IMG/VR virus record: IMGVR_UViG_3300006103_001171 | DNA from: an uncultured virus (IMG/VR IMGVR_UViG_3300006103_001171) | Lineage: Duplodnaviria; Heunggongvirae; Uroviricota; Caudoviricetes | Direction: 5' to 3' (one strand) | Length of the DNA: 51,901 nt | In this document: piece by piece, positions 940-49,482 of the stretch | Numbering within the stretch: position 1 is the stretch's first letter | How the letters are laid out: every line of letters starts with the position of its first letter | Translations under genes and position numbers: made by a program | Notes under the pieces: generated by a model | What the model was told of the DNA's origin: nothing | Databases searched by the model: none | What the model saw: the letters and a program-made list of their open reading frames with translations, nothing else

Positions 940-1027
940 CTAAGTGTGTAGTCAATCGAAGACGACTCCCTTTGGAGCGGAGAATAGCTGTAAAAGGCTT
1001 ATGCAGGTTCGAGCCCTGTCACTTAGA
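940..1027 (+). tRNA. atypical tRNA-Pro(TGG) with long variable arm
   Basis: acceptor CTAAGTG/CACTTAG; loop TTTGGAG; about 20-nt variable arm; T-arm GCAGG-TTCGAGC-CCTGT. Confidence 0.65.
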
Positions 1028-1034
1028 CTAAAAT

Positions 1035-2662: not shown

Positions 2663-3058
2663 ATGAGTTTAAAGATTAAAATATCTGAAGATTTAAAAAC
2701 AGCGATGAAAGAAAAGAATACAATCAAATTAGGTATTCTTAGAGTTCTTAAGGCTGAGATTGAAAGAAATGAACAATCCGCTAATGGTAAAATTGAATTA
2801 CCAGATGGTGACGTTATTAAAATAGTTAAGAAACTAATTGAGGGTATAAAAGAAACTACTAAAGACCAAGTTGAAATTGATGCTTTAGATTTGTATTTAC
2901 CTAAACAAATGAATGAGGATGAAATAAAGGCCATTATTGCTCTTGTTAAACAATCTGGCATTTCACAGATGGGTGAATTCATGAAGTACTTCAAGGTGTA
3001 TCATGATGGTGAATATGATGGTAAATTATTAAGTAACCTTGTAAAAGAATCATTATAA
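2663..3058 (+). CDS. GatB/YqeY domain protein
   Basis: MSLKxKIxEDLKxAMK...LRVLKAEI...YLPKQM...MG signature. Confidence 0.9.
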   Translation: MSLKIKISEDLKTAMKEKNTIKLGILRVLKAEIERNEQSANGKIELPDGDVIKIVKKLIEGIKETTKDQVEIDALDLYLPKQMNEDEIKAIIALVKQSGISQMGEFMKYFKVYHDGEYDGKLLSNLVKESL

Positions 3059-3459
3059 TGGCATCATTATTACTTATCGAGATTTTCACAATTATATTTA
3101 TTCATTGGGTATCCGATTTTGTGTTACAAACAGATTGGGAAGCTAAGAATAAAAGCAAAGATGACTTAGCTTTACTGTCACATACATCAAAGTATTCGAT
3201 GTGCTGGTTTATTCCAATTTTTATTTTATTTACGAAATTTGGACATAATGGTGATGTCTATTATAGGGTTAATATATCGTTCTTTTTTTGTGTTATCACA
3301 CTTGTATCCCATACCATAACGGATTACTTTACATCGAGACTTAATTCTAAATTATGGGCTAAGGGTCATGTACATAACTTCTTTGTTAGTGTTGGTTGGG
3401 ACCAAATTTGTCATTACGTACAACTATTTTTAACATATTACTTATTAAAAACAATTTAA
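3058..3459 (+). CDS. DUF3307-like membrane protein
   Basis: HxxxDFxLQT, HxxxD and DQxxH motifs. Confidence 0.8.
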   Translation: MASLLLIEIFTIIFIHWVSDFVLQTDWEAKNKSKDDLALLSHTSKYSMCWFIPIFILFTKFGHNGDVYYRVNISFFFCVITLVSHTITDYFTSRLNSKLWAKGHVHNFFVSVGWDQICHYVQLFLTYYLLKTI

Positions 3460-27700: not shown

Positions 27701-29518
27701 ATGGGTAGTATTTTGAAAGTCAAGAATTTGACAACATTAGCAGAAGGTGTAATCGTATTCGTAGGATTGGCCGTAATTTTAACAGGTGTTTATTTCTTTG
27801 CGCCAGGTCTTCGAGTTTCGGGGTCAAAAGTCCTAAGTGGATTAAAGATTGGAAGTGAAAACATCGACAACGCTGGGGTAGCGGAGAAGATTAGTTTACC
27901 TTCAAAAGATGTATCAACAAAAGTAACAAGCAAGCCACTTAAGCGTATTGCTGAGTATGGTTGGAACGCAAACGCTGGTATGATTGTAGCAAATGGTGGT
28001 CCTCGTACAACTAAGGGTTCTATTTTAGAAGGTCTTGGTGAAAATATCGAAATCGTTAAGATTGACGGTGTATCAGATTTGCGTAACATGCAAGTAAGCT
28101 TTGTAGAAGAACTTAATTCAGGTAACGAAAATCCAGTAGGTGAAAAATCAGCGTTTGCTGTATCTATTATGGGTGATGGTGCCGTATTTTATGCAACCAC
28201 ACTTCAAGCAGAATTGGATAATAAATTTGGTAATGGTAAGTATCATGCACAAATAATTGGTGGTTATGGTTTATCATTTGGTGAGGATAAAGTTATCGGT
28301 CCAAGAATTTGGAAGGATAATCCTAAATCAATGGAAGGTGCTGTACTTAGTTCTGTAATCGGTGACGGTGACTGGGTTATTGCAATTAACTATTGCTTCG
28401 CAAACGGTTTAAAGGTTAATACAGATGCAACAACTTACGATGCACACGCCGTAAACTTTTTACCTAGTGAAAATGATGATTACATTAATTCTGTTAAGGA
28501 ACTTATTAAATCTCAAAAAAGTGGTTATACCGTATCATTGAAAGAAGTAGTTGATGGCAAATTGACAGGTAAAACTGTAAATAGAAAAATTGACGGTGCT
28601 ACTACATGGACCCCAGGTGACAAATTGGCATTCGAGAGTCTTTCTGGATTCACTGATGTAGTTTCTACTAGAGATTTCAATAACCAAATGTGTGCTGTAA
28701 TGGTAACCATTAAGGAATATGCGCTTAAGCATGACAAAGAAGTGTCGAACATACTTAAAGCGGCATATGAAGGTGGTAATCAAATCAAGACAAGTGATGA
28801 ATGGTTACATGCGGCTTCTGATGCGGTAGCTAAGACATACAACTTTGAAAATGGTAAGTACTGGTACGACATGTTTAAGGGTCAAAAAGGTACTAAAGAA
28901 GGTCTTGATTATAGTGTTGGTGGTAGTAAGGTGTTTAACTATGCTGATGCTTTGCAATACTTTGGTATCTCTGATGGTGTTAATCGTTATAAATCAGTAT
29001 ATGACCAAATCTCTAAATACTTAGTTGAGTTAAATCCATGTGATTTCAATAAGACATGTAAATCTGGTCCATTAGCTTATGATGATGCTGTTAATTTGTA
29101 CTTCTTGAAGTCTATTAATGATGTTCATACAGGTAAAAAGGATAGTGTTAGTTATGCTGAAAATAAGACAACTGTAATGGCTGATGGTAACTGGAAGATA
29201 AACTTTGCAACTGGTAGTTCAACTATTAGTGAATCATCTTCAAAGGACTTAGAAACAATTTACAACTTATTAATTCAAGCTGAAAATACTAAACTTAAGA
29301 TTATTGGCCACACCGATAATGTAGGAAATCCAGATGCTAATTTGACATTGTCTAAGGGTCGTGCAAATTCAGTAGCACAATACTTGAAAGATAAAGGGGT
29401 TCCATCTGAAAGGTTCCAATTAGTGGATGGTGCTGGTGATACACAACCTGTAGCTGATAATAGCACCGCTGCTGGTAAAAGTAAGAATCGCAGGACTGAA
29501 ATTCAATTATTAAAATAA
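27701..29518 (+). CDS. ABC substrate-binding (NitT/TauT-like) domain fused to OmpA C-terminal domain
   Basis: N-terminal TM; INFATGS, GHTDNVG..N..LS..RA, NRRTEI. Confidence 0.85.
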   Translation: MGSILKVKNLTTLAEGVIVFVGLAVILTGVYFFAPGLRVSGSKVLSGLKIGSENIDNAGVAEKISLPSKDVSTKVTSKPLKRIAEYGWNANAGMIVANGGPRTTKGSILEGLGENIEIVKIDGVSDLRNMQVSFVEELNSGNENPVGEKSAFAVSIMGDGAVFYATTLQAELDNKFGNGKYHAQIIGGYGLSFGEDKVIGPRIWKDNPKSMEGAVLSSVIGDGDWVIAINYCFANGLKVNTDATTYDAHAVNFLPSENDDYINSVKELIKSQKSGYTVSLKEVVDGKLTGKTVNRKIDGATTWTPGDKLAFESLSGFTDVVSTRDFNNQMCAVMVTIKEYALKHDKEVSNILKAAYEGGNQIKTSDEWLHAASDAVAKTYNFENGKYWYDMFKGQKGTKEGLDYSVGGSKVFNYADALQYFGISDGVNRYKSVYDQISKYLVELNPCDFNKTCKSGPLAYDDAVNLYFLKSINDVHTGKKDSVSYAENKTTVMADGNWKINFATGSSTISESSSKDLETIYNLLIQAENTKLKIIGHTDNVGNPDANLTLSKGRANSVAQYLKDKGVPSERFQLVDGAGDTQPVADNSTAAGKSKNRRTEIQLLK

Positions 29519-33842: not shown

Positions 33843-33925
33843 AGTTAATAAGTGTTTCAAGCTAAGTGAATTACGGGTGTTCTTTTGAACACCCAAAATT
33901 TACACCCGAATTAAAAATTAATGTT

Positions 33926-34360
33926 ATGGATTTATTTGATGATTTATTTAATGATTTTTTTAAGAATCGTAAACCGATTAAAAAAGTTGATGATAAGCCA
34001 TTCATAAGTGAATTAAAAAGTCTTATGAATGCATTAAGTGATTTTAAAACCTTCGACCCAGAAGAAGGTGAAGAAATCCAAAATAAATTGGGTGAACCAG
34101 ATGAGGTTCAAAAATTTGTTGAAAATGACATGCACTTCACCAGATTAATCTGGAATACACCACATGGTAAATTCATTAAGGTTCTTGTTACAAATGACCC
34201 AGATTCTTTTGAATTACCAACATATGATAAGGAACCTAAATCTCTTCAAGAACAACTTGATGAAGCGGTTGAAGCTGAGAATTTTGAATTAGCTATCAAA
34301 TTAAGGGACCAAATCAACGGTACAAAAAAAGTTAAAAGAACTAGGAAAAAAGTTGAATAA
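33926..34360 (+). CDS. UvrB/UvrC-motif protein
   Basis: LDEAVEAENFELAIKLRDQI. Confidence 0.75.
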   Translation: MDLFDDLFNDFFKNRKPIKKVDDKPFISELKSLMNALSDFKTFDPEEGEEIQNKLGEPDEVQKFVENDMHFTRLIWNTPHGKFIKVLVTNDPDSFELPTYDKEPKSLQEQLDEAVEAENFELAIKLRDQINGTKKVKRTRKKVE

Positions 34361-34422
34361 AAATTTGTTAGTTTGAAATAACTAACGTATATTTGCAGAG
34401 TAATTAAAAACAAAGCAAATTT

Positions 34423-34493
34423 GGTTCTATAGCTCAACGGCAGAGCTGGACTCTCTAAAAGTCTTGATGTTGGTTCGATTCCGACTAGAATCA
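34423..34493 (+). tRNA. amber suppressor tRNA (anticodon CTA)
   Basis: full cloverleaf; GGACT-CTCTAAA-AGTCT places CTA at 34455-34457; own promoter. Confidence 0.85.
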
Positions 34494-34541
34494 CACTTTA
34501 CATTTTTTAACAATTATTGTATATTTATAAAAAAAAGAAAT

Positions 34542-34898
34542 ATGACACATTAGGTATCTAACACTGAGAAATTAAGAGTAATCACAAGAAGAGACTTGAG
34601 TTTAGGGTATCAAGCAACAATGGCATGTCATGCTGCAATAGACTTTCAGCACGAACATATAGCTGAGTCGATACAATGGCACAAGTCATCTAATTATTTA
34701 GCCATTTTAACTGTTAAAGACGAACAAGAACTTATTGACTTAATGGTCAAAGTTAGTCTTAGAGGTATTAAGTATACCATTTTCCGTGAACCAGATTTAG
34801 AGAATCAAATTACAGCTGTGGCTTTAGAAGCTACAAATGCTAGTAAAAAAGTAACAAGTTCTTTACCATTACTTGGAAAGGAGGTAAGTTATGTATAA
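34542..34898 (+). CDS. Pth2-like peptidyl-tRNA hydrolase with in-frame TAG at codon 4
   Basis: ATG ACA CAT TAG GTA.. continues in frame as KLRVITRRDLSLG..ACHAA..FREPDL..TAVA; conserved first strand lies upstream of the TTG chosen by the ORF track. Confidence 0.8.
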
Positions 34899-35241
34899 TT
34901 TACTAGAAAACGAAACTTGTAGTTTACAGGGTTGTTTAGCTGATAAAGCTTATGCTATTGTTGATTTATCAACGAAAAGGGTTCATAGAATAAGTTTCAG
35001 CAAATCATTATTAGAGCATATTATAGACACAACCGATAGTCCTTTTGTTGTAAAAGAGGTAACATTTGTTTTAGGTCGAAAATTGTTAAGTGGTGAAACT
35101 AGTTTAACGGGTATATATGCCTTGGTTAAGAGTAAAAATAATTGGACATTACGAATTTCTTTATTTAAAGATATTGCAAACTATCTTTGTGATTTTGAAA
35201 CTAGAAGTCTTAGAGAGTGTATAATAACAAAAATTAATTAA
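34891..35241 (+). CDS. hypothetical protein with internal duplication
   Basis: two YA(I/L)V...RIS units. Confidence 0.65.
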   Translation: MYNLLENETCSLQGCLADKAYAIVDLSTKRVHRISFSKSLLEHIIDTTDSPFVVKEVTFVLGRKLLSGETSLTGIYALVKSKNNWTLRISLFKDIANYLCDFETRSLRECIITKIN

Positions 35242-35870: not shown

Positions 35871-35959
35871 ATTAAAGGGAGAAGAAATTCTCCTTTTTTA
35901 TTTGGTAGTGTTAAGTAAATACCATATATTTGCATTTTATTAAACATAAAATTATACGC

Positions 35960-37930
35960 ATGAAAAATTTACTTACATTGATTTGCTTATTAGTAACATT
36001 TCAATTAATCGCACAAGACACAATTAAGTCAAAGACTCTAGAACCAATACAAATTACTTGTGTTAGGGCTGATAAGAAAATCCCAGTAACACAAAAAACG
36101 CTCTCCGATTCGGCTATTCAAGCGAATTATCAGGGTCAAGAAATACCTATGTTGTTAGGTTCTCAAACATCAATTTACACGAATTGTGATGGTGGTCATA
36201 ACGCTGGTTATAGTTACTTTAGCATCAGGGGTATTGACCAAACAAGAATAAACATAACTCTTAATGGTGTTCCATTGAATGAAGGTGAAGACATGGCTTG
36301 TTATACGTCTAATTATCCAAGTTTTACCAGCGCAATTCAATCTATGCAAATTCAACGTGGTGTGGGTACATCATCTAACGGCGCATCATCCTTCGGTGGC
36401 TCATTGAACTTTCAAAGCAAGGATGGCCTTATTAAGGGTACTGATATTCAAATAGGTGGTGGTTCATTTAATACATCAAGATTTGACATATCCACATCCA
36501 CAGGTTTATCCAAACACAAATTAGCCTTATTCGCTAATATTGGTGGTATACAAACTGATGGCTTTAGAGATAATTCAGGTTGTAAGGGTGGTTCCGCTTT
36601 TGTGAGTCTTGGTTACTTCGGGAAGTCTAGTATTACAAAACTTAACCTATTAACAGGAATATCACAAAACAAACAAGCTTGGATGGGTTCAAGTGATTCA
36701 GCATTAGCAGCTAATTATCGTGATAACCCAAGAGGTGGTGATAATATGGATAATTTCAATCAAACGAATGTTCAATTGCAGAACATAACAATGTTTAATA
36801 CACGGTTTAAATTAACCAGCACTGCGTTTTATAATTACTTAGATGGTCACTATAATGTGTTTAACTTAAAGGATATACCAGTTAATAATTATTTTGCATA
36901 CGAAAGCCAGTATTCACGATGGATTGGTGCGGTAACTCAATTAGATTATAACTATGGTGATTTTAAGGTTACTTCAAGCCTTTCAGCCAGTACTTATACG
37001 AGGTTCCATAATGGTTATGAGATTTACGATACAACACTTACTGAATATCCCTATACTAATAGTGGTAAAAAGAATGATGCAAATGCATTCATAAAGTTTA
37101 GTTATGACACTAAAAGAGTCTTGTATTATATCGACTTACAAGAAAGATTTGTTGATTATAAGTACTCTGGTGATACAAGTGTTTATCAAAGCTGGAAGTT
37201 CTTTAACCCAAAGGCTGGTGTTAAGTTCTTCATAAACAAGAGTTTGGATGTGTATTGGAGCGTAGGTTTATCTCATAGAGAACCAACACACTCAATAATG
37301 CTTAATGGTTGGTTGTACTTAAACTCTTATAATCCGATTACAATAGTTAAGCCTGAGGAAGTAATTGATAATGAAATAGGTGTAAATTACACGTCAAGTA
37401 AACTAAAATTACAAGCTAATGTTTATGTAATGAAATTTACGAATGAAATGATAGCTGCTGGGCCGATGGGTAATAACAGTCTTCCTATTATGATGAATGT
37501 TCCTAATAGTCTAAGATATGGCTTCGAATTTGATTGTACTTATAAAGTAAATAAGTCGTTTACTTATGATATTAATTCAACATTATCTAATGGTCAGTTT
37601 AAAGTTGATAGCGGTACGTATAGCTACTTATTTAATCCAAATTTTATGTTTAAGCATTCGATTAACTATACACATAATAAGTTATTTGTAAGCCTTAATC
37701 AAGCATATATTTCAAGAGTTTACATTGATAAGGCTAATCAATTTACTTTGCCAATATCATCTACAATCGGTTTGAATCTTGGATATACCTTTGGTCGTTA
37801 TCAAGTATCAATTCAGGGTAACAATTTAACAGGTGAGAAGACTTATAGCAATGGTTCAGTTACTGGTGTTAGGTATAGAATACCTAACGCTTTACAAAAT
37901 TACTTCATAACCCTTAAAATACACTTATGA
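35960..37930 (+). CDS. TonB-dependent receptor
   Basis: signal peptide, plug SIRG..TRINITLNGVPLN, QIQRG..GG, barrel strands. Confidence 0.9.
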   Translation: MKNLLTLICLLVTFQLIAQDTIKSKTLEPIQITCVRADKKIPVTQKTLSDSAIQANYQGQEIPMLLGSQTSIYTNCDGGHNAGYSYFSIRGIDQTRINITLNGVPLNEGEDMACYTSNYPSFTSAIQSMQIQRGVGTSSNGASSFGGSLNFQSKDGLIKGTDIQIGGGSFNTSRFDISTSTGLSKHKLALFANIGGIQTDGFRDNSGCKGGSAFVSLGYFGKSSITKLNLLTGISQNKQAWMGSSDSALAANYRDNPRGGDNMDNFNQTNVQLQNITMFNTRFKLTSTAFYNYLDGHYNVFNLKDIPVNNYFAYESQYSRWIGAVTQLDYNYGDFKVTSSLSASTYTRFHNGYEIYDTTLTEYPYTNSGKKNDANAFIKFSYDTKRVLYYIDLQERFVDYKYSGDTSVYQSWKFFNPKAGVKFFINKSLDVYWSVGLSHREPTHSIMLNGWLYLNSYNPITIVKPEEVIDNEIGVNYTSSKLKLQANVYVMKFTNEMIAAGPMGNNSLPIMMNVPNSLRYGFEFDCTYKVNKSFTYDINSTLSNGQFKVDSGTYSYLFNPNFMFKHSINYTHNKLFVSLNQAYISRVYIDKANQFTLPISSTIGLNLGYTFGRYQVSIQGNNLTGEKTYSNGSVTGVRYRIPNALQNYFITLKIHL

Positions 37931-38469
37931 TAGAGTTTATTGGTGCTTTATTCACGCTTTTATCAGCATATTATACTGTAAAAGAAAAGGTCATTTGTTG
38001 GCCGTTAGCGATAGCATCAACGATTATCTACATATATTTACTATATATTGAGAAATTGTATGGTCAGGTATTTGTCGATATATTAACGTTATTTCAATGC
38101 GCTTACGGTTGGTATTATTGGGATAAAACTGATAATAAGCAGCCTGAAAGACTTAAACCCATTAAGTTTGTTAGAGATATATTTCTTTTAGTTCTAATAT
38201 CTAGTATTACAATATACTACATAAGAACATATACTAATAATCCACAACCAGTATCGGATATTACGTCAACATACTTAGCACTTTTAGCTAATTGGTATTT
38301 AGCTAAGAAGTTTATTGATGGGTTTTATGTTTGGGTTATAGCCGATATAATACTAGCGTATATGTTTTATTATCAACATATGTATTGGTCAATGGGTTTA
38401 TTTATTATTTTAATAGGGTTCGCCCTTCAAGGTCAATTCGCATGGCAAAAGAGTTTAAAAACGGACTAG
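37927..38469 (+). CDS. pnuC: nicotinamide riboside transporter
   Basis: multi-TM; WP, YGWYYW, W...D motifs. Confidence 0.88.
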   Translation: MIEFIGALFTLLSAYYTVKEKVICWPLAIASTIIYIYLLYIEKLYGQVFVDILTLFQCAYGWYYWDKTDNKQPERLKPIKFVRDIFLLVLISSITIYYIRTYTNNPQPVSDITSTYLALLANWYLAKKFIDGFYVWVIADIILAYMFYYQHMYWSMGLFIILIGFALQGQFAWQKSLKTD

Positions 38470-39443
38470 TACTTGGGAAATGTTTTCCATTTCACTTAGG
38501 ACATAAATATCTTATTGATTCAGCAATTAAGCAATGTGATACGGTTCACGTTATGGTTTGTTCACTTAAACGTGAAAATATAGCTGGTGAATTACGTTAT
38601 GAATGGGTTAAAGAAACATATATGAATAACCCTAGTGTGAATGTTATTCATTGTGATGATGAAAATCCTCAACATCCACCAGAATGTGCTAGTGTTGATG
38701 AATTTTATAATAAGTATTGGGTACCGACTGTATACAAGCATGTTAAGGAACTGGATGTTGTATTTACTTCTGAGGATTACGGTGATGAATTTGCCAGTTA
38801 CTTAGGTGTTAAGCATGTGCTTGTTGATAAAGCTAGAACAGCTTATCCTGTATCTGGAACTTCGGTTAGAGAGAATCCTTATGCAAATTGGGATTTAATA
38901 CCTGATAATGTTAAAAAATACTTTATTAAAAAGATTGTTATTTTAGGTCCTGAATCTGTTGGTAAATCAACGATGGTTAAAAAGTTGGCTGAGCATTTGG
39001 GTTGTAAGTATATCGATGAGTTCGGTAGGACTTATACTGAATTAACTGGAACTGATAATCTTCAAATATTTGATTTTGAAGCGATAGCTCATTGGCATAA
39101 TCATCATATTGAAAAGGCTGAAATTGATAAGTACTTAATAATTGATACAGAAGCGATTACAACTAAGATATTTGCTGAAATGTACTTAGGTAAACGTGAA
39201 AGTGAATCTAAATTCATAGATGAAATCATAAGTGAGCAACATTTCGATTTATACTTAGTGCTAAACGTTGATGTTCCTTGGGTTGATGATGGTACAAGAG
39301 ACTTTCCAGAGGGTCGTGAAGAGCATCTAAACACTATTATCTCTAATTTAGAGGAAAGAGGTTTAGAATACAAGCTTATTAGCGGTGATAATTACGATGA
39401 AAGATTTGAAAAAGCCTTAGAAGAAGTTAAAAAGTTGGGATGA
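38442..39443 (+). CDS. nadR: NadR-type NMN adenylyltransferase / ribosylnicotinamide kinase (no HTH)
   Basis: GKxFPFHLGH, SGTSVR, GPESVGKST, PWVDDGTR. Confidence 0.9.
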   Translation: MAKEFKNGLVLGKCFPFHLGHKYLIDSAIKQCDTVHVMVCSLKRENIAGELRYEWVKETYMNNPSVNVIHCDDENPQHPPECASVDEFYNKYWVPTVYKHVKELDVVFTSEDYGDEFASYLGVKHVLVDKARTAYPVSGTSVRENPYANWDLIPDNVKKYFIKKIVILGPESVGKSTMVKKLAEHLGCKYIDEFGRTYTELTGTDNLQIFDFEAIAHWHNHHIEKAEIDKYLIIDTEAITTKIFAEMYLGKRESESKFIDEIISEQHFDLYLVLNVDVPWVDDGTRDFPEGREEHLNTIISNLEERGLEYKLISGDNYDERFEKALEEVKKLG

Positions 39444-40771
39444 CATTTAAATAACAATTAAATCGTTATTTATTTGATTACGGACATTATTGTTCATAAT
39501 CACACTAGTGTAATCCAGTGGCTTTGTCATTGAAGCAAGGTGATTGTCGTAATATCTTTTCATTATGTTGATAGCTGAGTTTAAATCTCTATCTATTTCG
39601 ACATTATCACTTAGTTTAACAGTTCTATCCTTTAACTCAACTTTATCTTTAAATAGCTTACCAGTAAGACTATTCAATTGAGTGGTGTATTTTTCATCAA
39701 TCTTAATTAAATCACATTGTTTATTTTGTGACTTATACTTAAGAAATTCTAAGAACATATTAATATTAGATTCATTAAATGATTTTCTAATACCCTTTTT
39801 ATTCTTATTTACTCCTTCTGTTGACATAAGGGTTTTTACTGTTAAATCGCCAACTACAATTGTTTTGTAGTTCATATTCACTAATTTTTTACTCTGAATA
39901 TGTAGAGTTTGTTTAATTTGACTATTCTTCTTATTATATAGTTTTCTTTTAACTTTATTTAATTTATTAAAGGATTTACTATTCTTTTGTTTTTTGCTTA
40001 ACTTAGACTTAATCTTATTAATCTGTTTACCGAAGTACTGATTAATCCTCTTTGATTTATTTTTAAGAATAACAACGGTACCATTGTTATCCACACCAGT
40101 ACCTAAATTCTTTAGACCTAAATCAATAGCGAGTACTCTTGATTTAATTATTAAATCATCTGAGTAGTTTATTTTATCATCGACAACAATATCACAAAGC
40201 CACTTATTATTAATAAATTTGACTCTAATTTCTTTAATATTTAATTCAGATAAGTTTGTTAAATGACTTGAATATTTAAAATTAATTTTATTTATTGAAA
40301 TTATACTATTTTCTTTGAATATCCAACCATTTAGGTTAAAAACTAATGTATGATACTTTCCGAGTTCTTTTGTCTTTGGTGGTCTAGCTGTATTATCTTT
40401 TTTAATAAGTGTGAAGAAAGATTGGTATGATTGAAATATTTCAGCTGCCACAACTTGTGCTGCTTTTGCATTAAATTGTTTCCAAGATTCCTTGGTTGAA
40501 TATTTCAATGGTGGAATGAGGTTAATTAAATCAAACTTTGAGTATACCTTTTTAGTTGATTCATAGTGTTTTTGCTGAATATCAATAAGAGTGTTCCAAA
40601 TATCCATACGAATATCAGACAACTGTTTTAGTTGAGATACCTGTTCTGTTGTTGGGTGTAACCTTATTGAGTATGTTTTCATTTAATATATAATTAACTT
40701 TATTCTCTGTTATATATTATAAATATCAGGTAAAAATAAAAAAGACAATAAATTTCGAAAAAAGTTGGGAT
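39429..40771. mobile_element. TnpB cassette with 13-bp direct repeat AAAAAGTTGGGAT, no transposase
   Basis: repeat at 39429-39441 and 40759-40771. Confidence 0.75.
39447..40682 (-). CDS. tnpB: TnpB-family RNA-guided nuclease, rearranged RuvC, no Zn finger
   Basis: KTYSIRLHPT; AIDLG; VVGDL; IDEKYTTQ; DRDLNSAINI. Confidence 0.88.
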   Translation of the reverse strand: MKTYSIRLHPTTEQVSQLKQLSDIRMDIWNTLIDIQQKHYESTKKVYSKFDLINLIPPLKYSTKESWKQFNAKAAQVVAAEIFQSYQSFFTLIKKDNTARPPKTKELGKYHTLVFNLNGWIFKENSIISINKINFKYSSHLTNLSELNIKEIRVKFINNKWLCDIVVDDKINYSDDLIIKSRVLAIDLGLKNLGTGVDNNGTVVILKNKSKRINQYFGKQINKIKSKLSKKQKNSKSFNKLNKVKRKLYNKKNSQIKQTLHIQSKKLVNMNYKTIVVGDLTVKTLMSTEGVNKNKKGIRKSFNESNINMFLEFLKYKSQNKQCDLIKIDEKYTTQLNSLTGKLFKDKVELKDRTVKLSDNVEIDRDLNSAINIMKRYYDNHLASMTKPLDYTSVIMNNNVRNQINNDLIVI

Positions 40772-42616: not shown

Positions 42617-43759
42617 ATGATAGATAAAATTGGTATTAGATATACGTTTAAGATTTCGGTACCACTAGATGTTTTAAAGATAAAAGAAGTTTTTACTAAG
42701 AATGGTCATCAACTATTTCTAGTTGGTGGTTGTATTCGTGATACCATATTAAATGTAACACCTAAAGATTTTGATTTAGTTACAAATGTTTCGCCAGAAG
42801 AGGTTATTAGAATTTTAAAGCATGAAAAGTTTGTTACAACAATATTAGAAACTGGAAAATCATTTGGTGTTATTAATGTTATAACTAGCGATAATGAATT
42901 TGAAATTGCTACGATGCGCAATGATGTGTTTAGTGATACACCAAATGGGAGGCATCCAGACCGTGTTATCTTTGGTGATATTTTTACTGATTGTATGCGA
43001 AGGGATTATACCATGAATGCGCTTTTTTATGACTTAGATACTAATGAAATAATTGACTTCGTTAATGGTGTTAATGATATTGAAAAATCTTTAATTAAGG
43101 CGGTTGGGAATCCAGAAGAAAGATTTAAAGAAGATAAATTACGCAAACTTAGGGGCGTTAGGCTGGCGGCCAGATTTGGCTCTGAATTGGACCCTGAGAT
43201 TGATGCCGCATTAAAAAGAGATGCCAGTCTGGAAGGTATATCTGGTGAAAGAATCAGAGATGAGTTTATAAAGGGTATCAAATCAGCTAAGTCAGTTGTT
43301 AAATTCTTGGAAATGCTTGATAGGTATCATTTATTTAATTGGATATTTAAGGGCTTACATGTAAATAAAGACTTTATTGAGGATAGAAATGTTGTAGTTC
43401 TTATTGCTATTTTATTAAAGGGTAACAACATAGGTGTTATAGCTAAGCAATTGAACAATCTTAAGTATTCTGTTGATGAGATTAAATCAATCACATTCTT
43501 ATTGAGTTTATTGCATTTAACACCTGAGACAGCAGTTGCTTTAAAGAGACAACAAAAGAACGCTTACACATCAAATCATCAAATAATTGATTTTGCTAAC
43601 CGTGAAGGTTTAAATACAAGATTGATACATGCGTTTTTAAATTTTGAGTTGACCGTTACTGGCGAAGAAGTTATGCAAAAGTTCAATTTGAAGCAAGGCA
43701 AAGAGTTAGGTGATATGATAAATAAATTGGAATTGGATAATTTTAAAAAAAGTTTGTAA
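42617..43759 (+). CDS. cca: tRNA nucleotidyltransferase (CCA-adding / poly(A) polymerase family)
   Basis: VGGCIRD..KDFD, RRDYTMNA, RFKEDKLR, SGERIRDE; the tRNA genes here lack encoded CCA. Confidence 0.88.
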   Translation: MIDKIGIRYTFKISVPLDVLKIKEVFTKNGHQLFLVGGCIRDTILNVTPKDFDLVTNVSPEEVIRILKHEKFVTTILETGKSFGVINVITSDNEFEIATMRNDVFSDTPNGRHPDRVIFGDIFTDCMRRDYTMNALFYDLDTNEIIDFVNGVNDIEKSLIKAVGNPEERFKEDKLRKLRGVRLAARFGSELDPEIDAALKRDASLEGISGERIRDEFIKGIKSAKSVVKFLEMLDRYHLFNWIFKGLHVNKDFIEDRNVVVLIAILLKGNNIGVIAKQLNNLKYSVDEIKSITFLLSLLHLTPETAVALKRQQKNAYTSNHQIIDFANREGLNTRLIHAFLNFELTVTGEEVMQKFNLKQGKELGDMINKLELDNFKKSL

Positions 43760-45763: not shown

Positions 45764-47056
45764 ATGAAGTGTATTAAAACAAGGAAAATTCAGTTGTTGC
45801 CATTAGGTGATTTTAATGAAACCTACAAATACGTTAATAATTTAAGTTCAGGCTTAGCGTCACTCGGTAATGAAATGATAAGGAGACATGTTTTATCATT
45901 TTATGAAATGGACGTACTAAAAGATTCAACTCCAGATGCTAAAACTAGAACTAATCTAATGAAGGAAAAATACGGAATGTCACTCCAAAATATGGGTTAT
46001 GATGTTTCAAAAAAGTATTCAGCCACAATTCCTTCGAATATTCGCACAACATTTAATCAAAAGGTCTTTAAAAAAATAAAAGACAGTTATTTTGGTATTT
46101 CAATAAATAAAGAATCTATACCATCATTCAGAAAAGACTCAATGGCAATTCCATTTAGTTATGATAATAATATCAGTTTGAACGAATTTGGGGTGTATGA
46201 TTTTAAATTCTTTAATAATGTCAATTTTAAATTAAACTTTGGACGTGATAGGTCTAATAATAAAGTTATCATTGACAGAATTTTATCTAATGAATATAAG
46301 CCATTATCTTCACATATAAAAATTGATAAGAAAAAAATATTCTTAGATTTAACATATTCTTTTGACTCAGATGAAAATGTTAACATATCTAAAGATAAAA
46401 TTGTTGGTGTTGATTTAGGTATAAATAGACCTATGACAATTGCTAGGGAAGATGGTACTTATGCAAAACAAATAGAAATCGGTGGTAAGATTCAATACTC
46501 TAGATTATCAATTCAAAAACAAAGAAGAAGCTTACAAAGTGCTTTAAGGCATTCATCTGGTGGTCATGGTACTGGTAAAAAAATAGCTAAATTAAAATCA
46601 TTAAAAGATTATGAACATAATTTCATGAAAACCACTAATGATACACTAAGTCGTGAATTAATAAAATATTGCGTTAATGAAGGTGTTGGTGTAATTAAAT
46701 TAGAAAATCTAACTGGTATAACAGAAAATGCTAATAATTTTCTTAAGTCTTGGTCTTATTATCAATTACAACAAATGATTGAGTATAAAGCTGCTGAATT
46801 TGGAATTACAGTATTATATGTTAATCCTAGATATACCTCTCAAACTTGTCCAACTTGTGGCAATATTGATAAAACTCAAAGAGATTCAAAGGATAAAACA
46901 AAATTTGCTTGTTCAAATGAAATTTGTTCTGATATTAATATAAATAAAGATGCTGATATTATTGGTGCCTTTAATATCTCAAAAAGAGATGGTGTTATCG
47001 CTTCTAAAAAAATATTACAAGAAAAAAGTGATAAAAAGTTGTTAGTTTCAGAATAA
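45764..47056 (+). CDS. compact type V effector, Cas12f-like (430 aa)
   Basis: RuvC-I GVDLG, RuvC-II KLENL, YTSQTCPTC Zn finger, RuvC-III DADIIGAFNI; adjacent to CRISPR array. Confidence 0.85.
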   Translation: MKCIKTRKIQLLPLGDFNETYKYVNNLSSGLASLGNEMIRRHVLSFYEMDVLKDSTPDAKTRTNLMKEKYGMSLQNMGYDVSKKYSATIPSNIRTTFNQKVFKKIKDSYFGISINKESIPSFRKDSMAIPFSYDNNISLNEFGVYDFKFFNNVNFKLNFGRDRSNNKVIIDRILSNEYKPLSSHIKIDKKKIFLDLTYSFDSDENVNISKDKIVGVDLGINRPMTIAREDGTYAKQIEIGGKIQYSRLSIQKQRRSLQSALRHSSGGHGTGKKIAKLKSLKDYEHNFMKTTNDTLSRELIKYCVNEGVGVIKLENLTGITENANNFLKSWSYYQLQQMIEYKAAEFGITVLYVNPRYTSQTCPTCGNIDKTQRDSKDKTKFACSNEICSDININKDADIIGAFNISKRDGVIASKKILQEKSDKKLLVSE

Positions 47057-48666: not shown

Positions 48667-49060
48667 CTAAGTGATTAACAAAGTTCTTTGATTTATGATA
48701 TTAGCAATAATATCAAGAAATTTTTTAGATGTATTTATTTTGAATTTTTGTTGAAATGATGTATCAATAATACATAAATCAATTTTATTTTCAATACATG
48801 ATTTAAATTTATTCTGGTCATTTATTTGTGTCTGGTTTAATTTATTAATACCGAAAATCGGTTCATAATGAAATATTCCATTCAATTCAAATGCTAAATT
48901 AAGTGACGGAATGTAGATGTCTAATTCAGAACCGATTGCATCCTTCTTATTATAGTCTATTTGTAGATTAGGGTAAAGAATTGTTAATTGTTCTTCAAGA
49001 TATATTTCGAGTTTAGAGCGTCTTGTGCCAGTTGTTTTATGTTTATTATAATTGTGAGTA
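48667..49060 (-). pseudogene. C-terminal remnant of PD-(D/E)XK/Vsr-like homing endonuclease
   Basis: SKLE...ELDIYIPSLNLAFELNGIFHY; no plausible start before it runs into tRNA-Glu antisense. Confidence 0.65.
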
Positions 49061-49074
49061 AATTGAATAAAAAT

Positions 49075-49160
49075 GCTATGGTCGACTAGTGGCTCAGGTC
49101 GCATCCCTTTCAAGGATGTGGGGAGAAATCCCCTCACGGGTTCGAATCCCGTCCATAGTA
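49075..49160 (+). tRNA. tRNA-Glu(TTC) with long variable arm
   Basis: CATCC-CTTTCAA-GGATG; variable hairpin GGGA-GAAA-TCCC. Confidence 0.85.
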
Positions 49161-49482
49161 CAAATGTTTTAGTTATGATTAAGCGAACAATTAGTGGTAG
49201 TTTTACTAATATGGTAAAACCTGACCCAAGTGTTATGAAAGATAGTGATTTTGATTTGTTATCGTTCTGATAGAACACTGGTTGTATTCACAATATGTAA
49301 GAGCGCATATACCAATTGCTGCTTTATGGGACAGAAAAGTTGAGGGGAAAGTTCGATTCTTTCGAAGGACACATTATTAACAAGTTAAAAAAAATGAGCG
49401 CAATGAAACAGCTGGACGCAATGTCACCAATCAGATAAGAGAAGAAAGAAAGGTTCTGATTGGTACGAGACAAACACGAAAA

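What the first reader, a model, noticed from the sequence alone, without database searches (positions are those of the whole stretch)
34388..34898. Amber-suppressor tRNA directly upstream of a Pth2 gene that needs amber read-through
Seen: a clean tRNA with CUA anticodon (34423-34493), followed 48 nt later by ATG ACA CAT TAG GTA..., in frame with a complete Pth2-like hydrolase whose conserved first strand (LRVITRRDL) has no other start codon upstream. Long genes in this window are intact in code 11 and several end in TAG, so this is not genome-wide recoding. Inference: a local recoding switch in which Pth is made only when suppression outcompetes RF1 termination, possibly sensing release-factor status or peptidyl-tRNA build-up. 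The anticodon loop CTCTAAA is one base from the Trp loop CTCCAAA; the charged amino acid is unknown.
Basis: partly seen in the sequence, partly recalled or inferred. Interest (0 to 1): 0.86.

Follow-up and report, generated by a model that had tools for sequence, protein, structure and literature searches.

The report
Amber-gated Pth2 with own suppressor tRNA
A giant bacteriophage carries a tRNA that reads the TAG stop codon right beside a peptidyl-tRNA hydrolase gene whose fourth codon is TAG, and the same pairing recurs in over a hundred related phages, so the enzyme seems to be made only when the phage's own suppressor tRNA is working.

Summary
The window is part of an AT-rich jumbo phage that uses the standard code. 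It holds a canonical tRNA(CUA) at 34423-34493. A promoter-like site follows, then ATG ACA CAT TAG GTA, in frame with a complete Pth2-fold protein.

In 146 unique homologous loci, 125 have ATG, 0-6 codons, then an in-frame TAG just before the first strand. No locus at 40% identity or more has a sense codon there. At least 98 of the 125 have a CUA tRNA in the fetched flank.

The codons between TAG and the first canonical start are protein-constrained. The window's TTG 34596 is TTG in only 3 of 121 loci. The base after the gate TAG is a purine in 124 of 125 loci; true TAG terminators prefer T.

A complete 362.5-kb relative shows no TAG recoding, and pth2 is its only early-TAG gene. Cultured phages (pT24, XacN1, Xoo-sp13, CM1) share the motif. 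The XacN1 authors reported suppressor tRNAs without identified targets.

Best reading: Pth2 synthesis is gated by the phage's own amber suppressor. Not known: the inserted amino acid, the biological purpose, and any RNA or protein evidence. I found no paper describing this.

The parts
34365..34393 (+). promoter-like site TTGTTA-17-TATATT upstream of the tRNA gene
   Evidence: Consensus scan, 9 of 12 matches. The scan found 3 sites against 4.2 expected in shuffles, so this site alone is weak evidence.
34423..34493 (+). tRNA with anticodon CUA (amber suppressor type). Anticodon loop CUCUAAA, G1-C72, discriminator A73, short variable arm, no encoded CCA.
   Evidence: ARAGORN. Rfam tRNA 61.5 bits, E 4e-13, full length. 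Acceptor features.
34497..34525 (+). promoter-like site TTTACA-17-TATATT between the tRNA and pth2; it would give a leader of roughly 10-15 nt, A-rich and without a Shine-Dalgarno
   Evidence: 10 of 12 matches. The same TTGACT-N17-TATATT layout recurs at this position in many homologous loci (listing). The transcription start is inferred.
34542..34550 (+). start codon and two-codon leader ATG ACA CAT (M-T-H)
   Evidence: Sequence. An in-frame ATG lies 1-7 codons before the TAG in all 125 gated loci, by definition of that class. There are 27 different leader peptides.
34551..34553 (+). in-frame TAG gate, codon 4 of pth2
   Evidence: Conserved in 125 of 146 unique loci. Seen unchanged in contigs of runs X6 and X7.
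34554..34556 (+). codon after the gate (GTA); +4 base is G
   Evidence: The +4 base at the gated TAG is A in 100, G in 24, C in 1 and T in 0 of 125 loci. At true TAG stops of long ORFs it is T 15, A 7, G 3, C 1 (n=26).; Fisher p 4e-14.
34554..34898 (+). Pth2-like coding region after the gate (114 codons plus TAA). Strand beta-1 (LRVITR) is encoded at 34572-34589, before TTG 34596.
   Evidence: Pfam PF01981. PDB profile hits to archaeal Pth2. AlphaFold2 pLDDT 90.9. Foldseek TM 0.72-0.80 to Pth2/Bit1.
34878..34885 (+). AAGGAGGT, a Shine-Dalgarno-like run inside the pth2 3' end, 5 nt before the next ATG
   Evidence: Sequence. It encodes the conserved C-terminal G-K-E-V. Function is inferred.
34891..35241 (+). 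downstream ORF (116 aa, no family hit) overlapping the end of pth2 by 8 nt; possibly translationally coupled
   Evidence: Of the 107 gated loci with a downstream ORF called, the members printed for three families (50, 3 and 2 loci) start at -8. Coupling is inferred.
42617..43759 (+). tRNA nucleotidyltransferase (CCA-adding enzyme); accessory, because the suppressor gene encodes no CCA
   Evidence: phrog_2244, E 6e-50. Only 3 of 54 pth2-linked CUA tRNAs encode CCA. The link to this module is inferred.

Best explanation
This is a two-part module of a standard-code jumbo phage: an amber-suppressor tRNA(CUA) gene and, just downstream, a Pth2-type peptidyl-tRNA hydrolase gene that begins ATG-ACA-CAT-TAG. 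Proposed course of events: ribosomes start at the ATG, the first AUG of a short A-rich leader. After two codons they meet UAG in a purine +4 context that favours suppressor tRNA over RF1. Either RF1 releases a tripeptide and no enzyme is made, or the phage tRNA(CUA) inserts an amino acid and the full 118-residue Pth2-fold protein is made. Pth2 output is therefore set by the ratio of suppressor activity to RF1 activity, like an AND gate of mRNA and working suppressor. Placing the gate at the very start means failed attempts cost only a tiny peptide. SHOWN: the anatomy; the conservation of the TAG; the tRNA linkage; protein-level constraint upstream of any canonical start; the special +4 context; the standard code elsewhere. 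INFERRED: that the neighbouring tRNA is the decoder; which amino acid it carries; and the purpose. The purpose I favour is to tie a peptidyl-tRNA recycling enzyme to the level of stop-codon suppression that the phage imposes on the infected cell.
For: (1) Gate conservation. 125 of 146 unique homologous loci have ATG, 0-6 codons, then in-frame TAG before the domain. Among loci at 40% identity or more, none has a sense codon at that place. Gated proteins diverge to 24% pairwise identity (median 55%), form 36 clusters at 70% identity, and have 27 different leaders.
(2) Linkage. ARAGORN finds a CUA tRNA within 400 nt upstream on the same strand in 59 of 125 loci, and elsewhere in the fetched flank in 37 more. 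L030 and L152 have one directly upstream that the programs missed.
(3) The stretch after the TAG is translated. K6 is kept in 119 of 121 loci, L7 in 120 of 121 using 6 codons, R12 in 121 of 121 using 5 codons, and D14 in 118 of 121. The first canonical start after the TAG lies inside the domain in 107 of 125 loci, is absent in 15, and lies before the strand in only 3.
(4) Context. The +4 base is a purine in 124 of 125 gated TAGs, against T in 15 of 26 true TAG stops. A passage in PMC6266110 states that +4 purines raise amber suppression, citing Bossi & Roth 1980 and Bossi 1983.
(5) Start-site signals. A conserved promoter-like TTGACT-N17-TATATT lies just upstream. In XacN1, CM1 and Xoo-sp13 a Shine-Dalgarno sits 8-9 nt before the ATG that precedes the TAG.
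(6) The gate is local. The window, G002 (160 kb) and G003 (108 kb) show no TAG recoding. In the complete 362,532-bp relative G004, the 20 longest ORFs are unchanged by TAG recoding, TAG ends 31 of 338 long ORFs, and pth2 is the only early-TAG ORF (1, against 9 for TAA and 11 for TGA).
(7) The product is a real Pth2 fold.
(8) Seven database proteins that show 'Q' at this place match loci letter for letter where the DNA reads TAG, so that Q comes from the gene caller's code, not from the DNA.
Against: There is no RNA, ribosome or protein evidence; no RNA run holds the stretch. 29 of 125 gated loci show no CUA tRNA by ARAGORN in the fetched flank. Six of those have under 400 nt of upstream sequence, two have a tRNA the programs missed, and pT24's lies 2.5 kb away. 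In 29 loci the tRNA is downstream, not upstream. The codon after the TAG is ATT in 91 of 125 loci, against ATA in 3 and ATC in 0. That is more than a purine rule or a conserved Ile explains, and AUU can serve as a start codon. Two loci (L070, L156) have TAA at the gate place with no tRNA seen. L004/L005 look like pseudogenes. XacN1 and Xoo-sp13 have an ATG 4 codons after the TAG, so read-through is not strictly required there. In mycobacteriophages Catera and Myrna a GTG follows the TAG directly, with Shine-Dalgarno spacing that fits the GTG; their nearby 'CUA tRNA' has a 9-nt loop and fails the Rfam threshold. The protein lacks the GKGK loop of archaeal Pth2, and a Glu aligns with the DAG Asp, so its substrate may differ. 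About 290 kb of the window's own genome was not available.
Confidence: 0.75

Rival explanations
1. Termination-reinitiation without suppression. The ATG-NNN-TAG is a mini-ORF that loads ribosomes. They terminate at TAG and restart at the adjacent codon (AUU in most loci), so Pth2 begins after the TAG and the tRNA linkage is incidental.
For: The codon after TAG is ATT in 91 of 125 loci and ATA in 3; AUU is a known rare bacterial start (recalled). In Catera and Myrna a GTG follows the TAG with good Shine-Dalgarno spacing.
Against: In 30 of 125 loci, including the window (GTA), the next codon is not a near-cognate start: GTA 11, GTT 9, AAC 4, AAT 1, GGN 3, ACG 1, CTT 1. A mini-ORF in a 30% GC genome should end in TAA, as 55 of 64 window ORFs do, yet the gate is TAG in 125 loci and TAA in 2. 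This model does not explain why at least 98 of 125 loci carry a CUA tRNA beside the gene.
Confidence: 0.08
2. The phage is a code-15-type phage. TAG is read as an amino acid in many late genes, and pth2 is merely one recoded gene in a part of the genome that otherwise looks standard.
For: Phage-encoded CUA suppressors are typical of TAG-recoded phages (abstract and passages of bioRxiv 10.1101/2021.08.26.457843). Only 52 kb of a 343-kb contig is in the window. The huge phage LR756501 has a second, internal TAG in its pth2.
Against: In the complete relative G004 (362.5 kb), no long ORF gains from TAG read-through. TAG terminates 31 of 338 long ORFs. Only 3 TAGs have 80 or more open codons on both sides, a rate of 0.0003 against 0.0004 for TGA, and none of them is a split gene. 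pth2 is the single early-TAG ORF. G002, G003 and the window give the same picture. TAG-spanning cross-genome alignments are no commoner than for the controls: TAG 32 of 215, TGA 68 of 357, TAA 86 of 618.
Confidence: 0.05
3. The TAG is read by a host tRNA (near-cognate read-through or a host suppressor), not by the phage tRNA, which serves another purpose.
For: About a fifth of gated loci show no CUA tRNA nearby. The amino-acid identity and charging of the phage tRNA are unknown.
Against: The tight and recurrent physical linkage. pT24 has only 4 tRNAs and one of them is CUA. The complete genome G004 shows no other use for a suppressor.
Confidence: 0.05
4. Broken or truncated gene. The protein starts at TTG 34596, or the locus is a pseudogene.
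For: A TTG at 34596 gives a 100-aa ORF. Some database entries are 100-aa calls. L004/L005 carry a frameshift and an in-frame TAA.
Against: That codon is TTG in only 3 of 121 loci. The codons before it are under amino-acid constraint and form strand beta-1 of the fold. 37 invariant columns across 21 sequences show purifying selection.
Confidence: 0.02

Closest known systems
TAG-recoded ('code 15') phages with suppressor tRNAs (crAss-like, Lak and other gut phages)
   Same: A phage-encoded tRNA(CUA) decodes in-frame TAG in phage genes while the host uses the standard code. The cited work proposes recoding as a post-transcriptional regulator (abstracts; passages of the bioRxiv preprint).
   Different: In those phages many late, structural and lysis genes carry in-frame TAGs and coding density collapses under code 11. 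Here the genome is standard code, TAG still terminates about 9% of long ORFs, and a single gene carries one TAG at codons 2-8.
Orphan amber-suppressor tRNAs of cultured jumbo phages (Xanthomonas phage XacN1)
   Same: XacN1 has two CUA tRNAs. Its authors read through 18 amber stops and found no target genes (passage of PMC5852040). XacN1 ORF364 is a Pth2-domain protein preceded by a Shine-Dalgarno and ATG AAG TAG.
   Different: In XacN1 the Pth2 domain is the C-terminal part of a 280-aa protein, the tRNAs lie in the terminal repeats rather than beside it, and an ATG 4 codons after the TAG offers a normal start.
prfB (release factor 2) autoregulation by an early in-frame UGA (recalled, not looked up)
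   Same: A translation-factor gene carries an in-frame stop near its 5' end, so its output reports how that stop codon is being decoded in the cell.
   Different: prfB escapes by a +1 frameshift and senses its own product. Here the frame continues unshifted and the escape needs a dedicated tRNA. No frameshift site was seen.
Phage lambda bar minigenes and host Pth (recalled, not looked up)
   Same: Two- to three-codon mini-ORFs are tied to peptidyl-tRNA hydrolase biology. Without suppression, the pth2 leader is such a minigene.
   Different: The bar minigenes are separate from any pth gene and end in a true stop. Here the mini-ORF is the 5' end of the hydrolase gene itself.
PTH2 of jumbo phages as described by Iyer et al. 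2021
   Same: [quoted passage not shown]
   Different: The passages found by my term search mention no amber codon and no suppressor tRNA ('suppressor' 0 occurrences; 'amber' only in the reference list).

Membership tests
Pth2 peptidyl-tRNA hydrolase (Pfam PF01981) | Profile match above the curated cut-off over the whole domain | tested here: met
   31.3 bits against a cut-off of 23, profile positions 3-114 of 115. The PDB profile search hits 2zv3 (E 6.9e-7), 1rzw, 24bt, 1q7s and 1wn2.
Pth2 peptidyl-tRNA hydrolase (Pfam PF01981) | Pth2 alpha/beta fold | tested here: met
   AlphaFold2 mean pLDDT 90.9, pTM 0.84. The top 13 Foldseek hits are Pth2, Bit1 or Pth2-family structural-genomics entries, TM 0.72-0.80 for 12 of them and 0.57 for the NMR model.
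Pth2 peptidyl-tRNA hydrolase (Pfam PF01981) | Catalytic residues of archaeal Pth2: a Lys in the GKGK loop and the Asp and Thr of the DAGxT motif (residue roles recalled, not looked up) | tested here: inconclusive
   In the alignment to 2zv3 and 1rzw the GKGK loop falls in a 2-residue gap, and the DAG Asp aligns with the Glu of the invariant R-E-P-D. R12, D14, H26, E79, D81 and T87 are invariant in the phage family.
Pth2 peptidyl-tRNA hydrolase (Pfam PF01981) | Hydrolysis of peptidyl- or N-acyl-aminoacyl-tRNA | not testable with these tools
   Needs an enzyme assay or complementation of a pth(ts) strain.
Amber suppressor tRNA | Canonical cloverleaf with a 7-nt anticodon loop carrying CUA, U33 and a purine at 37 | tested here: met
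   Rfam tRNA 61.5 bits, full length. Loop CUCUAAA in the window and in 83 of 108 unique CUA tRNAs from the loci.
Amber suppressor tRNA | Is aminoacylated and decodes UAG on the ribosome | not testable with these tools
   The identity set is unclear. G1-C72 in 44 of 54 and A73 in 44 of 54. The acceptor stem GGTTCTA is shared with the phage's own tRNA-Arg(UCG) and short tRNA-Leu genes. The sequences are very divergent from one another.
Genome-wide TAG reassignment (code 15 phage) | Many genes interrupted by in-frame TAG; ORFs lengthen markedly when TAG is read as sense | tested here: not met
   Window, G002 and G003, complete G004.
Genome-wide TAG reassignment (code 15 phage) | Phage-encoded tRNA(CUA) | tested here: met
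prfB-type autoregulatory recoding | Early in-frame stop escaped by a programmed frameshift | tested here: not met
   The Pth2 frame continues in frame 0 straight through the TAG. The early in-frame stop itself is present.
Pyrrolysine system | tRNA-Pyl architecture together with pylS and pylBCD genes | not tested
   ARAGORN's label 'tRNA-Pyl' is only its name for any CUA anticodon. No search for pyl genes was made.

The most novel reading that the evidence does not exclude
The module is a self-setting homeostat for stop-codon suppression. On this reading the Pth2-like enzyme lacks the canonical Lys loop because its substrate is not bulk peptidyl-tRNA. It acts instead on the acylated or peptidyl form of the suppressor tRNA, or on products of UAG read-through. 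More suppression then makes more enzyme, which lowers suppression or its damage. That would be a tRNA-based counterpart of the prfB loop. It would let a standard-code phage run a controlled level of amber read-through in its host. It would also explain why CUA tRNAs sit beside pth2 even in distant relatives that have a normal start (L071, L076).
Probability: 0.12. Interest if true: 0.93.

Novelty: new variant of a known kind. Interest (0 to 1): 0.82.

Why it matters
Phage suppressor tRNAs have so far been linked to wholesale code change. This case shows a dedicated pair instead: one tRNA and one gene, kept across very deep divergence in standard-code jumbo phages that infect different bacterial phyla. 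The gated gene is itself a translation quality-control enzyme.

It offers a concrete candidate target for suppressor tRNAs whose targets could not be identified, as the XacN1 authors reported. It could also be the kind of intermediate stage (suppressor acquired, first TAG tolerated) that the code-change model of Borges et al. calls for.

There is a practical consequence as well. Gene callers either truncate this gene (100-aa calls, or the late start annotated in pT24) or silently write Q at the TAG. The feature is therefore invisible in protein databases.

The idea is directly testable with a small reporter, and several cultured phages carry the motif.

Tried and rejected
- No whole genome is held for the window. 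The 343-kb source contig could not be searched. I used relatives G002, G003 and G004 instead.
- blastn of the region against GenBank phages found no match.
- Earlier findings of this scan: nothing by words or by sequence.
- Expression: no RNA holder is listed among 24 runs. The contigs laid can only show that the DNA is present.
- Amino-acid identity of the tRNA: pairwise comparison with about 80 other phage tRNAs gave no close isotype. Best matches were spread over Arg 36, Leu 20, Phe 15, Lys 9 and others. No conclusion was drawn.
- The cross-genome 'alignment spans the stop' test was confounded by off-frame nucleotide conservation. I used it only as a comparison of TAG with the TGA and TAA controls.
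- Other gated genes: the early-stop scan of all locus flanks gave TAG 12, TAA 15, TGA 8, so no enrichment. The 'MK#I' ORF after pth2 in LR756500 is under 40 aa and was dropped. Candidates in G002 and G003 were ordinary gene ends or antisense frames.
- Ribozyme or other RNA element near the tRNA: no Rfam match at E up to 1 apart from tRNA and one chance hit.
- A pattern search for CUA tRNAs in five large relatives found them in 2 of 5. The pattern is too strict to count absences.
- Bacterial and archaeal genomes: only 2 hits, both phage-like contigs binned into MAGs. No cellular counterpart was found.
- The downstream 85-aa protein, the XacN1 N-terminal domain and the pT24 C-terminal extension have no Pfam family.
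- I considered the mycobacteriophage cluster C genes (Catera gp153, Myrna gp84) as members of the gated class and set them aside as ambiguous.
- Supplementary files of the papers were not consulted.
Full report
**What is in the window**

ARAGORN finds 11 tRNA genes; the one at 34423-34494 has anticodon CTA. Rfam's tRNA model matches 34423-34493 full length at 61.5 bits against a gathering score of 29. Its anticodon loop is CUCUAAA.

Forty-eight nt downstream lies ATG (34542) ACA CAT TAG (34551-34553) GTA. The frame then stays open to TAA at 34896-34898. The read-through product matches Pfam PTH2 over profile positions 3-114 of 115, at 31.3 bits against a cut-off of 23.

A profile built from 21 family members hits archaeal Pth2 structures (2zv3, E 6.9e-7). 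An AlphaFold2 model (mean pLDDT 90.9) superposes on Pth2 and Bit1 structures at TM 0.72-0.80. In the model, strand beta-1 is LRVITR, encoded at 34572-34589. The only canonical start after the TAG, TTG 34596, would remove that strand.

The surrounding genes are those of a large phage: a T5 A1-like DNA transfer protein, a sigma factor, a CCA-adding enzyme, NadR and PnuC, NUDIX enzymes and many homing endonucleases. GC content is 30.6%. The identical stretch lies on a 343-kb metagenome contig.

**Is the window standard code?**

Of 64 ORFs of 90 aa or more, 55 end in TAA, 5 in TGA and 4 in TAG. Reading TAG as sense adds less ORF length than the TGA control does. So the window itself looks standard.

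**Is the TAG private?**

It is not. I fetched 164 homologous loci from viral and metagenome contigs and 11 from GenBank phages. After removing duplicates there are 146 unique loci.

- 125 have an in-frame ATG, then 0-6 codons, then TAG, at most 15 codons before the matched domain.
- 3 are cut by a contig end.
- 2 (L070, L156) have TAA at that place.
- The remaining 16 are mostly distant relatives at 30-39% identity: most have an ordinary ATG start, three are the Xanthomonas/Stenotrophomonas fusions described below, and Myrna has TAG without an upstream ATG (Catera's ATG-TAG-GTG falls inside the 125).

No locus at 40% identity or more has a sense codon at the gate.

The gated proteins are old. 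Pairwise identity goes down to 24% (median 55%), they form 36 clusters at 70% identity, and they have 27 different leader peptides such as MK, MT, MTH, M and MKDT.

The 'MTHQVS...' N-termini in the protein database come from gene calling, not from the DNA. Seven such proteins match my loci letter for letter except that the DNA has TAG where they show Q.

In the window's own lineage, contigs of two other runs cover the TAG unchanged. Those runs may belong to the same sampling campaign.

**Linkage to the tRNA**

Among the 125 gated loci, ARAGORN finds a CUA tRNA as follows:

| Position of CUA tRNA | Loci |
|---|---|
| Within 400 nt upstream, same strand (median 65 nt from tRNA 3' end to TAG) | 59 |
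| Further upstream in the locus | 7 |
| Downstream | 29 |
| Opposite strand | 1 |
| None found | 29 (6 of these have under 400 nt of upstream flank) |

L030 and L152, both in the 'none' class, do have a CUA tRNA-like gene directly upstream. It has an odd D arm, and both ARAGORN and Rfam missed it. So 98 of 125 is a lower bound.

The tRNAs themselves are very divergent from one another. They keep the CUCUAAA loop in 83 of 108 unique sequences. Among 54 pth2-linked ones, 44 have G1-C72, 44 have A73, and only 3 encode CCA. The window encodes a CCA-adding enzyme.

**Is the stretch after the TAG translated?**

Across the 121 of 125 loci that could be placed in register, the ten codons for K-L-R-V-I-T-R-R-D-L are held at the amino-acid level while codons vary freely:

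- L7 is Leu in 120 of 121, using six codons.
- R12 is Arg in 121 of 121, using five codons.
- D14 is Asp in 118 of 121.

The codon that is TTG 34596 in the window is TTG in only 3 of 121 loci. After the TAG, the first canonical start lies inside the domain in 107 of 125 loci, is absent in 15, and lies before the strand in 3. Translation must therefore enter from upstream, and the only conserved entry point is the ATG before the TAG.

**Signals around the gate**

Between the tRNA and the ATG, many loci share a TTGACT-N17-TATATT layout (listing). In the window it is TTTACA-17-TATATT at 34497-34525, matching 10 of 12 positions. That would give a short A-rich leader whose first AUG is the gate ATG; the transcription start is inferred.

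In the Xanthomonas and Stenotrophomonas phages, a Shine-Dalgarno sits 8-9 nt before the ATG that precedes the TAG.

The base after the gate TAG is A in 100 loci, G in 24, C in 1 and T in 0. At TAG codons that really end long ORFs in the window, G002 and G003 it is T 15, A 7, G 3, C 1 (Fisher p 4e-14). A passage of PMC6266110 states that +4 purines raise amber suppression, about 10-fold for C-to-A with supE, citing Bossi & Roth 1980 and Bossi 1983.

One point is unexplained. The whole next codon is ATT in 91 of 125 loci, against ATA in 3 and ATC in 0. That is more than a purine rule or a conserved Ile predicts.

**Is it part of genome-wide recoding?**

I read G002 (to base 160,000 of 160,281; 80% identical pth2), G003 (108 kb, whole) and G004 (362,532 bp; IMG/VR reports direct terminal repeats and CheckV 100% completeness; 59% identical pth2).

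In G004:

- The 20 longest ORFs (up to 2292 aa) are identical under code 11 and with TAG read as sense.
- Reading TAG as sense gains less than the TGA control in 18 of 19 segments.
- TAG ends 31 of 338 long ORFs.
- The early-stop pattern (ATG within 7 codons upstream, at least 80 open codons after, no canonical start in the first 8) occurs once for TAG, and that one is pth2. It occurs 9 times for TAA and 11 for TGA.
- Only 3 TAGs have 80 or more open codons on both sides, a rate of 0.0003 against 0.0004 for TGA; none looks like a split gene.

G002, G003 and the window give the same picture. So these phages use the standard code, and the suppressor's only evident client is pth2. The window's own remaining 290 kb could not be read.

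**Cultured phages**

- Tenacibaculum phage pT24 has ATG AAA TAG ATA before a PTH2 domain. The GenBank CDS BPT24_235 starts 32 codons into the match. pT24 has only 4 tRNAs, and one is CUA, about 2.5 kb upstream.
- Xanthomonas phages XacN1 (ORF364) and Xoo-sp13 and Stenotrophomonas phage CM1 carry a 280-aa protein with a C-terminal PTH2 domain. It is preceded by a Shine-Dalgarno and ATG AAG (AAG) TAG.
- CM1 has both CUA and UUA tRNAs.
- The XacN1 paper reports two CUA suppressor tRNAs and says that reading through 18 amber stops found no target genes (passage, PMC5852040).
- XacN1 and Xoo-sp13 also have an ATG 4 codons after the TAG, so read-through is not obligatory there.
- The huge phages LR756500-LR756504 and LR745206 show the same gate.
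- Mycobacteriophages Catera (ATG TAG GTG) and Myrna (GTG TAG GTG) are ambiguous. The GTG after the TAG has the better Shine-Dalgarno spacing, and the nearby 'CUA' tRNA-like gene has a 9-nt loop and fails Rfam's threshold.

**How it most likely works**

Shown: the anatomy, its conservation, the tRNA linkage, the protein-level constraint, the distinct context, and the standard code elsewhere.

Inferred: ribosomes start at the ATG and meet UAG after 0-6 codons. Either RF1 ends a tiny peptide, or the phage tRNA(CUA) carries the ribosome into the Pth2 frame. Enzyme output then follows the ratio of suppressor activity to RF1 activity. A gate at the very start wastes least when it fails.

The purpose is open. 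My preferred reading is that a peptidyl-tRNA recycling enzyme is tied to the level of suppression the phage imposes. Three observations fit a translation-rescue toolkit:

- A phage tmRNA lies beside the gated gene in L066.
- Iyer et al. read jumbo-phage PTH2 as a ribosome-rescue enzyme (passage, PMC7824862).
- An ORF overlaps the pth2 stop by 8 nt behind an AAGGAGGT in the window and in the loci printed for three downstream-ORF families (50, 3 and 2 of 107 loci), so a second protein may be coupled to the gate.

The enzyme departs from archaeal Pth2 at the Lys loop, and a Glu stands where the DAG Asp aligns. Its substrate may therefore be narrower, which keeps a feedback model alive.

**Novelty**

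Five full-text searches and passages from seven papers found no description of an amber-gated pth2 or of a tRNA(CUA)-pth2 pair. The papers and calls were: PMC5852040, PMC6102473, PMC13037316, the bioRxiv preprint 10.1101/2021.08.26.457843, PMC7824862, PMC5966550 and PMC7162821. I saw search listings, abstracts and term-matched passages only, not whole texts or supplements. Subscription-only papers are outside that library.

I rate this a new variant of a known kind: suppressor-tRNA read-through in phages, here reduced to a dedicated one-gene gate on a translation-factor gene.

Noticed in passing
window 940-1028 and 49075-49161; G002 and G003 tRNA lists: Many tRNA genes of isotypes that normally have short variable arms are 84-92 nt long: Pro 89, Glu 87, and in relatives Val 91, His 91, Asn 88, Ala 88, Met 86. 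This suggests insertions or introns. The Glu gene is overlapped on the opposite strand by an HNH-endonuclease-like ORF at 48667-49278.
   Followed up: no
window 35930-37930: A 666-aa ORF with a signal-peptide-like N-terminus and a TonB-dependent receptor Plug domain (PF07715, E 9e-11) inside a phage genome. Together with TAnnTTTG-like promoter motifs after some genes in G002 (motif recalled), it points to a Bacteroidota host.
   Followed up: no
window 37927-39443: A PnuC-like transporter followed by a NadR-like NMN adenylyltransferase. The PnuC ORF is one of the few that end in TAG, so a working suppressor would extend it.
   Followed up: no
window 39447-40682 (-) and 45764-47056 (+): Two transposase-family ORFs (phrog_506 and phrog_12300; their kind is not typed here) in a phage tRNA and auxiliary-gene region.
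   Followed up: no
L066 738-1095: A phage-encoded tmRNA (Rfam 89.3 bits) and three tRNAs lie directly upstream of a TAG-gated pth2.
   Followed up: no
L152 2471-2738 and about 1355-1430; L030 about 1385-1455: A group I intron (105 bits) lies downstream of pth2 in L152. In L152 and L030 the CUA tRNA directly upstream has an aberrant D-arm region and escapes both ARAGORN and Rfam.
   Followed up: partly
L070 1492; L156 107; CM1 record position 176611: Two homologues have TAA instead of TAG at the gate (ATG ACG TAA GTA; ATG ... TGG TAA GTA). Stenotrophomonas phage CM1 also encodes a tRNA(UUA), so an ochre version of the gate may exist.
   Followed up: partly
L004/L005 (also L067/L068) 2989-3330: A pth2 copy with the early TAG plus a frameshift after 'NWFK' and an in-frame TAA. 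It is identical in contigs from two metagenomes: a decaying copy or something odder.
   Followed up: partly
L009 357-429 and about 684-1480: A second CUA tRNA followed by a second 'MTH-TAG-ISNNEKLRIVTRRD' start that runs into an unrelated 262-codon frame. This looks like a duplicated module front fused to another gene.
   Followed up: no
L184 (LR756501, 735-kb phage) pth2: This homologue has a second, internal TAG (EFP-TAG-IYEQW). That genome may read TAG as sense more widely.
   Followed up: no
L190 1975-2046 (Myrna); L191 2105-2178 (Catera): tRNA-like genes with 9-nt anticodon loops (CUUCUAAAC and CUUCUAACC) lie next to the mycobacteriophage pth2. GenBank labels them tRNA-Ser and tRNA-Arg, ARAGORN reads CUA, and Rfam does not pass them.
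   Followed up: partly
L007 1838-2095 and 49 other loci: A conserved 85-aa ORF with no Pfam family. In the members printed, its ATG overlaps the last codons of pth2 (start at -8).
   Followed up: partly
G002 position 28578 (in L168): A second CUA tRNA in the same phage, clearly derived from the neighbouring tRNA-Lys(UUU) genes (alignment score 43 against 22 or less for all others), far from pth2.
   Followed up: no
window 33866-34360: The gene just upstream of the tRNA encodes a 164-aa protein with a UvrB/UvrC (UVR) motif (PF02151, E 1.4e-10). Its role is unknown.
   Followed up: no
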